A stretch of 64,000 bases of DNA, from assembly GCA_045123185.1 (NCBI GenBank), contig JBGVIL010000020.1:19715-83714 (forward strand), in the 5' to 3' direction. Position numbers and translations under genes: made by a program. This document shows positions 25,767 through 28,028 of this stretch, piece by piece. The notes below the pieces were generated by a model, which made no database searches, was not told where the DNA came from, and saw nothing but the letters and a program-made list of their open reading frames with translations. Each line of letters starts with the position of its first letter. Position 1 is the first letter of the stretch. Source of the DNA: Bacilli bacterium. GTDB lineage: Bacteria > Bacillota_I > Bacilli_A > ML615J-28 > CAG-313.

Positions 25767-26420
25767 TTATTTCCATAACTCTTCAATATCTTTAGATGCT
25801 ATAAGATAACTATCTTTTCCTATAACTGTTTCTCTTGTTTCAAAATCTATCATTCCGAATATTAATGAAATATCATTGGGAACGTCACTATCGTTATCTC
25901 TATCACCAATGAATTTGACAAGATAGTTTTCTAATATATATAATCCTGCAAGAGCATTTAAAACATTTTTAAGATTTGCTTTATGATAATTGCACAATCT
26001 TTCATGTTTAACATTATTGTATGGAGTCCACCAATCTGGAGATTTATAATTAGGTTCTTTTTGCCAATTAGAAAAAGGTTGAAGTTCTAAATCCTTAAAT
26101 CTTACCTTTTGAGTATTAATATTCACCCAATTTTGTAAGACTATTGGAGTGTAACCATTCTTCATATCATTTGCTGATTGATTACCTAACTCTAAACAAA
26201 TACTTTTTAATATAACATCAATCTCAGAACATATTGCTTGATATTGTTTAATAAATTCATTAGAGAATGTTTTACTATTTCCACAATTGTCATGTTCAAT
26301 ACCATCATACAAATAATCTTCGCCAAGTTCAAAACTGACATATCTTTCTGATTGGAGAAAATCTTTTTCCAATACTAAATAATATTCCCAATGATGCTTG
26401 CAAAATTCTTTACGATTCAT
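25767..26420 (-). CDS. hypothetical protein with a possible HEPN-like Rx4H motif
   Basis: WWTPYNNVKHERLCNYHKANLKNVLNALAGLYIL contains R-L-C-N-Y-H (Rx4H) followed by an amphipathic helix. Start chosen at the ATG at 26420 (GGGGTGG SD upstream). Confidence 0.3.
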   Translation of the reverse strand: MNRKEFCKHHWEYYLVLEKDFLQSERYVSFELGEDYLYDGIEHDNCGNSKTFSNEFIKQYQAICSEIDVILKSICLELGNQSANDMKNGYTPIVLQNWVNINTQKVRFKDLELQPFSNWQKEPNYKSPDWWTPYNNVKHERLCNYHKANLKNVLNALAGLYILENYLVKFIGDRDNDSDVPNDISLIFGMIDFETRETVIGKDSYLIASKDIEELWK

Positions 26421-26451
26421 AAAATCCACCCCGTATATATTAATCTTTTTT

Positions 26452-26745
26452 TTATTCGAAATGATATAAAACTTCTTTATTATGTTTTTTAGCATATTCT
26501 ATTTCTTTTTTAACAGATTCTCCAATATATCCATTAATATTAACTACATAAATACCATCACTAATATCAATTTTTTTATAGTGAGCTTTTTCTAATAAAA
26601 GTATTTCTTCATTATTCAGTTGAATATGTTTATCTATATAAACGCATTGCAAAATATTATATCCTTTTTCAATTTCTAATTGATAAGCTATTCTTTTCAT
26701 TTCTTCAGCAAATTTCATGCTTCCACATATGGTATAAGTTTTCAT
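26452..26745 (-). CDS. small nucleoside 2-deoxyribosyltransferase-like (Rcl/NDT-fold) protein
   Basis: 97 aa. The N-terminal TICGSMKF and the later SDGIYVVNINGYIGESVKKEIEYA resemble the NDT/Rcl pattern (xxCGSxRG ... acidic residue ... G.G.E.G.A). Assigned from memory only. Confidence 0.35.
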   Translation of the reverse strand: MKTYTICGSMKFAEEMKRIAYQLEIEKGYNILQCVYIDKHIQLNNEEILLLEKAHYKKIDISDGIYVVNINGYIGESVKKEIEYAKKHNKEVLYHFE

Positions 26746-26761
26746 AATGTTCTTCTCCTAA

Positions 26762-27529
26762 TTAAATAATCTTAACTAAATCCTTACATATTTCTATAAG
26801 AGAATATCTTATACTTTTTCTATCTCGCCAACTTCTTTTATCCCATACTTCTTGAGATACGTCATCACCAGCATAAATAATTGCTCCATATTTTATATTT
26901 CTGAATTGAGCTACTGCAATACAACCTGATTGTTCCATTTCAACGATTTTAGCTCCTTCTTCTTTTCGTATCATAATCTTATCTCTTGTTTCTCTATAAA
27001 ACGCATCAGTAGTCCATGTTAGCCCTTCAATATAAGGTATATTATTTTCATTCAAATATGCACAAATAATCTTTCTAACATCTTCTTGAGAATTAATAAT
27101 TCTAGATGGTTTCACATAATGGTAAGAGAATCCTTCATCTCTAATAGAACCTTTTACGACTAACAATTCGCCTACTTTTATGTCTTTATCTAAAACTCCA
27201 CCGCCACCGCAAAACATTACTTCAGAAATGCCAATTCCAGTTAATTCATCCATATATCCTGCACAAGCAGGACAACCTATTGTTCCATGCATAAGCAAAA
27301 CATCTTCATCAATAAATTTATATAAAACTAAGTCGTTTTCTCCGCTAATTGTTAAATACTCTTTTATTTTTCCATCATCTAATAACATATTAACTGCTTC
27401 TTTAAAAAATGTAATAATCAATTTTTTAATTGGTAAAACACCATATTTCTTTTGAAGAAAATATGGATTAATTAAAGCTTCTTTATTATCATCGAACTCC
27501 AATATAGGGTAATCCTTGTTTTTTAGCAT
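26762..27529 (-). CDS. PNP/UDP-family nucleoside phosphorylase
   Basis: HGTIGCPACAGYMDELTGIGISEVMFCGGGG and IVEMEQSG resemble the uridine/purine nucleoside phosphorylase family-1 blocks. Start chosen at the ATG at 27529. Confidence 0.6.
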   Translation of the reverse strand: MLKNKDYPILEFDDNKEALINPYFLQKKYGVLPIKKLIITFFKEAVNMLLDDGKIKEYLTISGENDLVLYKFIDEDVLLMHGTIGCPACAGYMDELTGIGISEVMFCGGGGVLDKDIKVGELLVVKGSIRDEGFSYHYVKPSRIINSQEDVRKIICAYLNENNIPYIEGLTWTTDAFYRETRDKIMIRKEEGAKIVEMEQSGCIAVAQFRNIKYGAIIYAGDDVSQEVWDKRSWRDRKSIRYSLIEICKDLVKII

Positions 27530-27545
27530 AATTTCACATCCTTTT

Positions 27546-28028
27546 TTATAACACATAGTCATTTATCATTTCTTTTACTTTATTAAACTTAACTTCATCA
27601 TAAACATAACTATGTCTTTCTTTAACAAAGTTCTTGCTACCACGCAATTCAAAACTATATCTAGGAATTAACTGTATATGATAATGATTGTTAGGTCCAT
27701 CACACATAGTACACATATATACTCTTTCACACTTATATACTTCTTTAATAATTATCATAAACTTCTTAGTAAATCTAATAATCTTCTCATTTATATAATC
27801 AGGAGCTTCACTTAAATCATGATAATGATTAATACTAGATATACACATATGACCATCAGCTCTAGGATTACCTACAAAGAAGCATTCTATATCTTCATCT
27901 TCATATATTAACTTATCGCTATTATCACCATACAAAGCACCATTATGTTTTCTATTAAAACAAGTTGGGCATATTCCTAAATCAACTAATTCACCTGGAG
28001 TTAATTTTAATAATTCTTTATCTTCCAT
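27546..28028 (-). CDS. HIT-superfamily protein with an HxHxQ variant triad
   Basis: NNHYHIQLIPR sits where HIT proteins carry HxHxHxx. The third-position Gln is the state found in the GalT/Ap4A-phosphorylase branch. An N-terminal CPTC motif is also present. Confidence 0.6.
   Translation of the reverse strand: MEDKELLKLTPGELVDLGICPTCFNRKHNGALYGDNSDKLIYEDEDIECFFVGNPRADGHMCISSINHYHDLSEAPDYINEKIIRFTKKFMIIIKEVYKCERVYMCTMCDGPNNHYHIQLIPRYSFELRGSKNFVKERHSYVYDEVKFNKVKEMINDYVL

What the first reader, a model, noticed from the sequence alone, without database searches (positions are those of the whole stretch)
25767..28028. Self-contained four-gene cluster (HIT HxHxQ, PNP/UDP phosphorylase, NDT/Rcl-like, Rx4H protein) between the toxin and the recombinase; candidate nucleotide-targeting defence or immunity module
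Seen in the sequence:
- The cluster has its own extended -10 promoter (28085-28113) and its own terminator (25655-25697).
- After start refinement the genes are separated by 16-31 nt.
- The HIT protein has HYHIQLIPR (Gln instead of the third His, as in phosphorylase/transferase-type HIT enzymes).
- The second protein has PNP/UDP family blocks (…EMEQSG…).
- The 97-aa protein resembles the nucleoside 2-deoxyribosyltransferase/Rcl fold.
- The last protein carries WWTPYNNVKHERLCNYH, with an R-x4-H spacing like HEPN RNase motifs.

Inference:
- Three nucleotide- or nucleoside-cleaving or transferring folds plus a possible HEPN domain is a typical parts list for nucleotide-depletion or abortive-infection systems.
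- The cluster sits in an accessory island next to a recombinase.
- I do not recognise this exact four-gene combination as a named system.
- Ordinary nucleoside salvage remains a plain alternative.
Basis: inference. Interest (0 to 1): 0.6.

Follow-up and report, generated by a model that had tools for sequence, protein, structure and literature searches.

The report
Mosaic nucleoside-enzyme cargo, not a system
The four neighbouring genes are real and probably read as one unit, but they are a patchwork of unrelated passenger genes sitting in a swappable slot of a mobile toxin cassette, not a conserved anti-phage or immunity system.

Summary
The sequence observations mostly hold. There are four co-directional genes with 16/16/31-nt gaps, an extended -10 promoter and a terminator. 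The first three are a HIT protein with a subfamily-conserved HxHxQ, a PNP_UDP_1 phosphorylase and a 97-aa protein with an NDT/DNPH1 (Rcl) fold. The Rx4H "HEPN" motif of the fourth protein (G4) fails: its histidine is not conserved, and no Pfam, PDB-sequence or PDB-fold match to HEPN was found.

The system-level reading is not supported.
- Outside this genome's own locus, no locus examined carries more than two of the four genes (only L020 and L049 have two). The set comprised 80 genome loci with the phosphorylase, about 110 with G4, about 100 with the 97-aa protein and several with the HIT protein.
- In 300 genomes of the same class, no other genome carries two of HIT, PNP and NDT-like.
- PADLOC finds nothing.

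Promoter+HIT+PNP is a 1.4-kb block that is 94% identical in a distant organism, so it was horizontally transferred. G4 homologues at 86–97% identity sit behind the same conserved promoter but follow entirely different genes. One of these loci also has the Rhs toxin, immunity gene and DUF4368 serine recombinase.

HIT–PNP–NDT is therefore this genome's filling of a variable cargo slot. G4 is an independent, uncharacterised gene carried on mobile elements.

The parts
28134..28163 (-). Intrinsic terminator closing the upstream Rhs immunity gene (28578..28192). It forms the left edge of the conserved inter-cassette element.
   Evidence: A 13-bp stem followed by a T-run. Folding gives dG -19.1 kcal/mol, z -6.1. 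Conserved after Rhs tip/immunity pairs in L114, L113, L229 and L017.
28085..28121 (-). Conserved promoter element. It contains the palindrome AATCTATattaATAGATT (28117-28100) and an extended -10, with TG at 28093-28092 and TATAAT at 28090-28085.
   Evidence: Read from the sequence. The core TAGATTATTTAATAGAAAAATGnTATAAT is shared by the window, L020, L229 and L017. L229 and L114 homology stops exactly at 28085, and L017 homology runs on to the HIT start codon.
27546..28028 (-). HIT-superfamily protein, 160 aa, with an N-terminal CxxC and an HxHxQ motif (HYHIQLIPR).
   Evidence: - Pfam HIT E 6.4e-5, 24 bits against a 21.5 cutoff.
- Subfamily alignment shows Q119 at least 90% conserved.
- Best PDB profile hits are Hint-branch HITs (1y23, 1.5e-15). 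Ap4A phosphorylase scores 6e-5 and GalT 6e-3.
- 1789 homologue clusters, the best 120 at 74-96% identity.
26762..27529 (-). PNP_UDP_1 (NP-I) nucleoside phosphorylase/nucleosidase-family protein, 255 aa, specificity unknown.
   Evidence: - Pfam PF01048 E 3.7e-28.
- All NCBIfam equivalogs (AMP nucleosidase, DeoD, Udp, MTAN) score far below their cutoffs.
- PDB profile hits: uridine phosphorylase 4lnh at 1.9e-22 and MTAP 1jds at 3.4e-18.
- 4643 homologue clusters.
26452..26745 (-). Minimal (97 aa) nucleoside 2-deoxyribosyltransferase / DNPH1(Rcl)-like protein of the DUF4406 neighbourhood.
   Evidence: - 4784 representative clusters at E<1e-3.
- 18 of 34 homologues hit DUF4406 and 10 of 34 hit Nuc_deoxyrib_tr.
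- AF2 pLDDT 96.7. The top PDB folds are all NDT/DNPH1.
- Invariant residues are G8, S9, H55, Y73, G75, E81 and A85.
25767..26420 (-). G4: a 217-aa helical protein of an uncharacterised family. It is the conserved last gene of the slot and has no HEPN support.
   Evidence: - 247 homologues.
- Invariant residues W11, N48, S53, E55, E66, D68, Y90, P115, W130, W131, K138, H139, R141 and A148 across homologues down to 29% identity.
- AF2 pLDDT 73.8, helical bundle. No PDB fold hit. One uncharacterised phage protein in BFVD.
- No Pfam, PADLOC or PDB sequence hit.
- 92% nucleotide identity with L229, together with the downstream recombinase region at 88%.
25660..25697 (-). Terminator hairpin plus U7 after G4.
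   Evidence: Folding gives dG -10.4 kcal/mol, z -2.9. It lies within the block shared with L229 at 92% identity (26430-25586).

Best explanation
The four genes form one transcription unit in this genome, but they are not an evolved four-part system. They are a mosaic filling of a variable cargo slot in a mobile Rhs-toxin-tip / large-serine-recombinase cassette.

The conserved frame runs in this order:
1. Rhs tip and immunity gene, with its terminator.
2. A conserved promoter with an extended -10.
3. The variable genes.
4. G4 and its terminator.
5. 75-bp repeats.
6. A small ORF.
7. A DUF4368 serine recombinase.

In this genome the slot holds two things.
- A 1.4-kb promoter+HIT(HxHxQ)+PNP_UDP_1 block, which was recently exchanged horizontally with a distant organism.
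- A minimal NDT/DNPH1-like gene.

Inferred from family chemistry, not shown: these three are ordinary nucleotide or nucleoside salvage or detoxification enzymes.
- The HIT enzyme would cleave or transfer a nucleoside-5'-phosphoryl group from a nucleotide conjugate.
- The PNP-family enzyme and the NDT-like enzyme would cleave or exchange the N-glycosidic bond of the resulting nucleoside, nucleotide or deoxynucleotide.

G4 is a separate single-gene accessory function of unknown chemistry. It travels alone on prophages and other mobile elements and is merely the fixed 3' gene of this slot.
For: No linkage elsewhere:
- 78 of 80 genome loci with PNP homologues (55-98% identity) have PNP alone. One (L020) has HIT+PNP, one (L049) has the 97-aa gene+PNP, and none has G4.
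- 80 metagenome loci, 9 viral loci and 19 other loci with G4 homologues contain no HIT, PNP or 97-aa gene.
- 80 viral loci and 20 cellular loci with the 97-aa family lack the other three.

Phyletic profile in 300 genomes of the class:
- HIT 3, PNP 13, 97-aa 22, G4 5. No genome other than this one carries two of HIT, PNP and 97-aa.
- G4 co-occurs with PNP or the 97-aa gene only on different contigs.

Mosaic origin:
- L020 shares 94.4% nucleotide identity over window 28126..26744 only (promoter+HIT+PNP). Its UvrB is 63% and its serine dehydratase 47% identical in protein to this genome's.

Variable slot:
- L229/L230 (G4 97%) have Rhs(2086 aa)-immunity-[274, 82, 115, 111, 35, 198 aa unknown genes]-G4-small ORFs-broken DUF4368 recombinase.
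- Homology to the window covers 29341-28085, 26430-25586 and 25383-23336, but not the cargo.
- L017 (G4 86%) has the same promoter and 5'UTR up to the ATG, then [402, 256, 73, 137, 53 aa], then G4.

Ordinary contexts of HIT and PNP homologues:
- SpoU-HIT-GNAT-PGK-TIM, HIT-canonical HIT-uridine kinase, glycoside hydrolase loci, and UvrA-PNP-GtrA.
- A weak recurrent HIT/PNP neighbourhood: a canonical HIT follows PNP in L025, L030 and L031, and a PNP paralogue lies 3 kb from HIT in L100/L101.

No defence signature:
- PADLOC is empty for all four proteins, for 30 G4 homologues and for 10 alternative cargo proteins.
Against: - Co-transcription is inferred from spacing, one promoter and one terminator only.
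- All three enzymes act on nucleotides or nucleosides, which is a coincidence if the slot is filled at random.
- The three families are rare and patchy in this class (1-7%). The HIT-PNP block with its promoter was recently transferred between distant hosts. This is the behaviour of selected accessory traits such as defence or resistance, rather than housekeeping salvage.
- The 97-aa and G4 families are both found in phages.
- The substrates of all four proteins are untested.
- Only three independent fillings of the slot were found.
Confidence: 0.68

Rival explanations
1. The four genes, or the three enzymes, act together as a newly assembled nucleotide-targeting defence, abortive-infection or immunity module. 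It might deplete or destroy nucleotides on phage infection, or detoxify a toxic nucleotide delivered by competitors.
For: - One promoter and one terminator with tight spacing.
- Cargo of a mobile cassette in an accessory island.
- Three nucleotide-active folds are present.
- Patchy distribution in the class.
- Recent horizontal transfer of HIT-PNP with its promoter.
- HIT hydrolases with an altered third His are proven resistance factors against peptide-nucleotide antibiotics (PMC7157772).
- GNAT acetyltransferases are frequent neighbours of PNP and HIT homologues.
Against: - No co-occurrence of the genes in about 300 loci or in 300 genomes.
- No PADLOC hit.
- G4 has no conserved Rx4H and no HEPN fold hit.
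- HIT and PNP homologues lie in housekeeping surroundings.
- The same slot holds unrelated genes in relatives.
Confidence: 0.12
2. G4 is the functional partner of the serine recombinase, for example a recombination directionality or accessory factor. That would explain why it stays fixed next to the recombinase while the upstream cargo varies.
For: - G4 and the recombinase region are conserved together between the window and L229 (92% and 88% identity), while the toxin tip region is 71% and the cargo is unrelated.
- A large DUF4368 serine recombinase follows G4 in L014/L015, L229-231 and L233. A small resolvase follows it in 12 loci.
Against: - Most G4 homologues (about 90 of 110 loci) have no recombinase within 4 kb. 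Examples are polysaccharide loci, positions next to Fic, and a position before terminase in a phage contig.
- L017 keeps promoter-cargo-G4 without any recombinase.
- The invariant E/D/K/H/R/N set looks enzymatic.
Confidence: 0.08
3. The cluster is simply this organism's native, vertically inherited nucleoside-salvage operon, and the toxin and recombinase genes were inserted around it.
For: - Each gene is single-copy in the genome.
- HIT and PNP families are widespread, with 1789 and 4643 clusters, and lie in ordinary contexts.
Against: - None of four same-genus genomes has any of the genes. Family relatives carry them singly.
- The families occur in 1-7% of genomes in the class.
- The HIT-PNP block is 94% identical in nucleotides to a distant organism.
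- The flanks (promoter and G4) belong to the mobile cassette frame.
Confidence: 0.05

Closest known systems
HIT superfamily: Hint branch by sequence; GalT/Ap4A-phosphorylase branch by motif (HxHxQ); MccH resistance hydrolases as a functional analogue
   Same: - HIT domain, N-terminal CxxC and the conserved upstream His (H60) are present.
- The third His of the triad is replaced. This is also seen in transferase/phosphorylase HITs (HXHXQ; PMC7705103) and in MccH (HxHxK; PMC7157772).
   Different: - Sequence similarity is best to Hint-type hydrolases. It is weak to Ap4A phosphorylase (6e-5) and GalT (6e-3).
- It is a single 160-aa domain rather than the GalT double domain.
- It is not in the MccH clade, having Gln rather than Lys and retaining the N-terminal His.
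- The substrate is unknown.
NP-I (PNP_UDP_1) nucleoside phosphorylases/nucleosidases (Udp, DeoD, MTAP, AMP nucleosidase)
   Same: A full-length PNP_UDP_1 domain with the EME ribose-binding block. The nearest solved relatives are a uridine phosphorylase and an archaeal MTAP.
   Different: It scores far below every NCBIfam equivalog cutoff, so its specificity cannot be assigned. It belongs to a distinct clade that is widespread in gut Firmicutes.
Nucleoside 2-deoxyribosyltransferase / DNPH1 (Rcl) / DUF4406
   Same: - Predicted fold.
- Family-level HMM hits.
- A conserved Glu (E81) in the G-x-x-x-E-I-x-Y-A helix, where NDTs carry the catalytic Glu. The equivalence is inferred, not shown.
   Different: - It is only 97 aa, against 125-165 aa, and lacks the C-terminal part of NDTs.
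- The protein itself is below Pfam detection.
- It is abundant in large phage genomes, next to RecD2 helicase, NAD-dependent ligase and YpsA-SLOG genes.
HEPN RNase domains (Rx4-6H)
   Same: G4 is an all-helical protein. A conserved N-x3-H sits at the start of a late helix, and the spacing resembles the N...H of RNxxxH.
   Different: - There is no conserved Arg before the Asn; that position is Y, H, Q or N.
- There is no Pfam HEPN family hit and no PDB fold hit.
Cargo or hotspot regions of integrative mobile elements (Tn4451/TnpX-type serine-recombinase elements; Rhs orphan-tip arrays)
   Same: Conserved flanks surround interchangeable passenger genes, next to a DUF4368 large serine recombinase and downstream of an Rhs tip/immunity pair.
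   Different: - The slot is framed by a conserved promoter on one side and a fixed last gene (G4) on the other.
- The breakpoints fall at the -10 box or start codon and at the G4 RBS.
- The mechanism of exchange is unknown.

Membership tests
HIT superfamily (PF01230) | HIT domain match above the Pfam gathering score | tested here: met
   24 bits against a 21.5 cutoff, E 6.4e-5. PDB profile hits to Hint-type proteins down to 1.5e-15.
GalT / Ap4A-phosphorylase branch of HIT | HxHxQ motif together with sequence relationship to branch members | tested here: inconclusive
   The motif is present and at least 90% conserved in the subfamily. Similarity to Ap4A phosphorylase (6e-5) and GalT (6e-3) is much weaker than to Hint proteins. 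The NCBIfam ATP adenylyltransferase hit is 14.9 bits against a 290 cutoff.
MccH-type peptide-nucleotide resistance HIT hydrolases | Third His replaced by Lys, and loss of the N-terminal catalytic-support His (PMC7157772) | tested here: not met
   Gln, not Lys, occupies the third position. The N-terminal His (H60, GHMCIS) is nearly invariant (criteria).
PNP_UDP_1 (NP-I phosphorylase superfamily) | Domain match above the gathering score | tested here: met
   99 bits against a 25.1 cutoff.
Specific NP-I equivalogs (AMP nucleosidase, DeoD, Udp, MTAN) | Score at or above the NCBIfam curated cutoff | tested here: not met
   The best hit is 56 bits against a 264 cutoff (AMP nucleosidase). All others are lower.
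Nucleoside 2-deoxyribosyltransferase-like (PF05014 / DUF4406 PF14359) | HMM relationship and flavodoxin-like NDT fold | tested here: met
   18 of 34 homologues hit DUF4406 and 10 of 34 hit Nuc_deoxyrib_tr. Foldseek top hits are all NDT/DNPH1, TM 0.70-0.80. The window protein itself has no direct Pfam hit.
Nucleoside 2-deoxyribosyltransferase-like | Catalytic Glu nucleophile | tested here: inconclusive
   E81 is invariant in 34 sequences. Its equivalence to the NDT catalytic Glu is inferred from motif position, not from a residue-level structural alignment.
HEPN | Conserved Rx4-6H motif | tested here: not met
   H146 is variable (R, K, F and others), and there is no conserved Arg upstream of N135-x3-H139.
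HEPN | HEPN four-helix fold or family HMM match | tested here: not met
   No PDB fold hit (best E 4.5). No Pfam HEPN family hit among 30+33 homologues. Caveat: the model has pLDDT 73.8, and the motif loop is below 50.
Known anti-phage defence systems (PADLOC-DB v2) | HMM match of any component | tested here: not met
   No significant hits for the four proteins or for G4 homologues.
Multi-gene 'system' (any) | Co-occurrence and co-localisation of the components across genomes | tested here: not met
   No locus outside this genome has more than two of the genes, and only L020 and L049 have two. There is no co-occurrence in 300 class genomes or in metagenome and viral loci.

The most novel reading that the evidence does not exclude
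The conserved promoter ... G4 frame downstream of Rhs toxin/immunity pairs is a genuine gene-capture slot of a serine-recombinase-mobilised cassette. The HIT(HxHxQ)-PNP-miniNDT trio captured here is a selected nucleotide-detoxification or defence trait. It might destroy peptidyl-nucleotide or nucleoside antibiotics, or phage-specific modified nucleotides. G4 would be a new single-gene, mobile-element-borne defence or exclusion enzyme with a WW-x2-[YH]N-x-VKH-x-R active site.
Probability: 0.12. Interest if true: 0.6.

Novelty: new member of a known kind. Interest (0 to 1): 0.3.

Why it matters
- It removes a false lead. A parts list that looks like a nucleotide-depletion defence system turns out to be a chance juxtaposition of passenger genes. 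This is a useful caution for guilt-by-adjacency calls in islands.
- Three small positives remain.
  - A 1.4-kb promoter+HIT+PNP block moves between distant gut bacteria.
  - A promoter-to-G4 slot in Rhs/recombinase cassettes carries different genes in different strains.
  - G4 defines a widespread, unannotated protein family found in gut Firmicutes, environmental metagenomes and phages. It has an invariant polar residue set that deserves a structure and a phenotype.

Tried and rejected
- **HEPN assignment of G4:** rejected. The motif is not conserved. There are no Pfam, PDB or fold hits.
- **Known defence system:** PADLOC is empty.
- **PHROGs:** only a weak hit of G4 to phrog_19461, of unknown function.
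- **Riboswitch or leader RNA in the cluster:** Rfam finds none at E<=0.1.
- **Plasmid or sequenced-phage origin of the DNA:** no blastn match. tblastn finds only unannotated metagenomic phage records.
- **Flanking repeats around the cargo:** a 26-nt, 77% inverted match (28096-28121 / 26436-26461) brackets HIT-PNP-97aa. It is too weak in 27% GC DNA to be called.
- **Alternative cargo genes of L229 and L017:** no informative Pfam or PADLOC hits.
- **Native salvage operon:** rejected on distribution.
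Full report
**What is there**

On the minus strand between the Rhs immunity gene (28578..28192) and the DUF4368 large serine recombinase (24953..23337) lie four ORFs.
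- HIT: 28028..27546.
- PNP-family gene: best start 27529, ending at 26762.
- 97-aa gene: 26745..26452.
- G4: best start 26420, ending at 25767.

The gaps are 16, 16 and 31 nt, and each start has an AGGAG- or GGAGG-like ribosome-binding site.

Upstream, a strong terminator (28163-28134; dG -19.1, z -6.1) closes the immunity gene. It is followed by the palindrome AATCTATattaATAGATT and an extended -10 (TG 28093-92, TATAAT 28090-85). Downstream of G4 there is an A/U-rich hairpin plus U7 (about 25697-25660; dG -10.4, z -2.9).

**The four proteins**

*HIT.* The protein passes the Pfam HIT threshold (24 against 21.5 bits).
- In an alignment of 18 subfamily members, NHYH[IV]QLIPRY is nearly invariant. 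Two canonical HIT neighbours from other loci keep HxHxH.
- By sequence it is nearest to Hint-type proteins (1y23, 1.5e-15). It is only distantly related to Ap4A phosphorylase and GalT.
- HXHXQ is the motif of the transferase/phosphorylase HITs (PMC7705103). MccH resistance hydrolases carry another replacement of the third His, HxHxK (PMC7157772).

*PNP-family protein.* It is a clear PNP_UDP_1 member (E 3.7e-28). It scores far below every NCBIfam equivalog cutoff. Its nearest solved relatives are a uridine phosphorylase and an archaeal MTAP.

*97-aa protein.* It has no direct Pfam hit, but its family is large, with 4784 representative clusters.
- 18 of 34 members hit DUF4406 and 10 of 34 hit Nuc_deoxyrib_tr.
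- The AF2 model (pLDDT 96.7) matches NDT and DNPH1 structures ahead of everything else.

*G4.* It has 247 homologues but no Pfam, NCBIfam, PADLOC or PDB relative.
- The AF2 model (pLDDT 73.8) is a helical bundle with no PDB fold match. Its single BFVD match is an uncharacterised siphovirus protein.
H146 is R, K or another residue in most homologues.
- The invariant core is W130, W131 ... N135-x-[VI]-K138-H139-x-R141 ... ANLKN, together with E18, S53, E55, E66, D68 and K72.

**Do the genes travel together? No.**

- Of 80 species genomes carrying a PNP homologue (55-98% identity), 78 have PNP alone within ±6 kb. One (L020) has HIT+PNP, one (L049) has the 97-aa gene just upstream of PNP, and none has G4.
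- Nineteen loci with G4 homologues at 60-86% identity lack the three enzymes. So do 80 metagenome loci and 9 viral loci.
- Eighty viral contigs and 20 cellular genomes with the 97-aa family lack the others.
- In an even sample of 300 genomes of the same class, HIT occurs in 3, PNP in 13, the 97-aa family in 22 and G4 in 5.
  - No genome but this one has two of the three enzymes.
  - G4 coincides with PNP or the 97-aa gene only on different contigs.
- None of the four same-genus genomes has any of the genes. Each is single-copy here.

**Where the homologues live**

- HIT homologues (74-96% identical across the 120 best clusters) lie in ordinary surroundings:
  - between SpoU methylase and a GNAT, next to PGK/TIM;
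  - among glycoside hydrolases;
  - in a 146aa-HIT-canonical HIT-uridine kinase row.
- PNP homologues follow UvrA, or precede GNATs or GtrA.
- There is a faint recurring HIT/PNP neighbourhood. A canonical HIT sits directly after PNP in L025, L030 and L031, and a 35%-identical PNP paralogue lies 3 kb from HIT in L100/L101. This fits a shared salvage-type chemistry rather than defence.
- In phages, the 97-aa family sits beside RecD2-like helicase, NAD-dependent ligase and YpsA-SLOG genes.
- G4 homologues are lone genes in variable places:
  - next to Fic;
  - next to AcrVA2-like/PDDEXK genes;
  - beside a resolvase and a DrmA-like helicase;
  - inside a polysaccharide locus;
  - directly before terminase genes in a phage contig.

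**The mosaic**

- L020, from an organism whose UvrB is only 63% identical in protein to this genome's, shares 94.4% nucleotide identity with window 28126..26744. That span is the promoter, HIT and PNP. The match stops one base past the first base of the 97-aa gene's start codon (26745), and L020 still carries that gene's RBS. HIT-PNP is thus a recently transferred 1.4-kb block.
- G4 at 97% identity occurs in a common gut species, indexed in 291 blocks of the collection. There its setting is Rhs(2086 aa)-immunity-[six unknown genes]-G4-small ORFs-fragmented DUF4368 recombinase.
  - The window and L229 align over 29341-28085 (71%), 26430-25586 (92%) and 25383-23336 (88%). They do not align over the cargo.
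- L017 (G4 86%) keeps the promoter and 5'UTR up to the start codon. Five other genes follow, then G4.
- The promoter/terminator element also follows Rhs tip/immunity pairs in a same-genus genome (L114, 96.5% over 115 nt) and in a family relative (L113).
- The conserved frame is therefore promoter ... G4(+terminator), usually with the recombinase behind it. The genes in between are interchangeable.

**Interpretation**

- The best-supported reading is a mosaic cargo operon.
  - It combines a transferred HIT-PNP pair and a mini-NDT, most simply nucleotide or nucleoside salvage or detoxification enzymes. The chemistry is inferred from the families, not shown.
  - G4 is an independent gene of unknown function carried on mobile elements.
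- The defence/immunity reading is not excluded.
  - Points in its favour are the patchy distribution, the mobile context, the three nucleotide-active folds, and the precedent of altered-triad HITs as antibiotic resistance enzymes.
  - It lacks the co-conservation that defines a system, and it has no hit in PADLOC.
- A role of G4 as a recombinase accessory factor is unlikely, because most homologues have no recombinase nearby.

**Limits**

- There are no transcript data.
- Only three independent slot fillings were found.
- The G4 model has moderate confidence, with the motif loop below pLDDT 50.
- The genome is a draft bin: 228 contigs, 81.6% complete, 5% contamination, and 2.49 Mb against 1.4-1.8 Mb for most relatives.
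- Rfam finds nothing in the region. The DNA has no match in plasmid or phage collections.

Noticed in passing
window 28085-28168 (also L114, L113, L229 4256-4400 and 12435-12562, L017 1386-1588, L020 5404-5510): A conserved terminator+palindrome+extended -10 element follows Rhs tip/immunity pairs in several genomes. It reaches 96.5% identity over 115 nt in a same-genus genome and occurs twice in L229. The palindrome AATCTATattaATAGATT could be an operator or a recombination site.
   Followed up: partly
L229/L230 8548-10032: In the common gut species that carries G4 at 97% identity, the DUF4368 serine recombinase is split into three ORFs (213, 47 and 186 aa). It is probably a pseudogene, whereas the window's copy (538 aa) is intact.
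   Followed up: no
window 25430-25606: Three tandem repeats of about 75 bp lie between the G4 terminator and the recombinase module. Their core is ATATCCCTTCAATAGTAACGGAC, spaced 77 and 73 nt apart. Homology with L229 is interrupted exactly here (25586-25383).
   Followed up: partly
protein family of window 26452-26745 (P0372-P0443 etc.): Many relatives of the 97-aa mini-NDT are proteins of 200-340 aa in which the domain matches in two or three stretches, or are fused to other domains. The family is very common on phage contigs of 100-200 kb.
   Followed up: partly
L104-L106, L024/L028/L029/L032, L225-L227: GNAT acetyltransferases repeatedly flank HIT and PNP homologues. One HIT homologue (96% identity) sits in a HIT-HIT-uridine kinase row. 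This may reflect a shared nucleotide-conjugate detoxification or salvage theme.
   Followed up: no
whole genome G000: The bin is 2.49 Mb in 228 contigs at 81.6% completeness and 5% contamination, whereas most listed same-family relatives are 1.4-1.8 Mb (two are 2.0 Mb). It may be a mixed or unusually island-rich bin.
   Followed up: no
window 26436-26461 and 28096-28121: A 26-nt inverted match (77% complementary) brackets exactly the HIT-PNP-97aa cargo. It could be chance in DNA this AT-rich.
   Followed up: no
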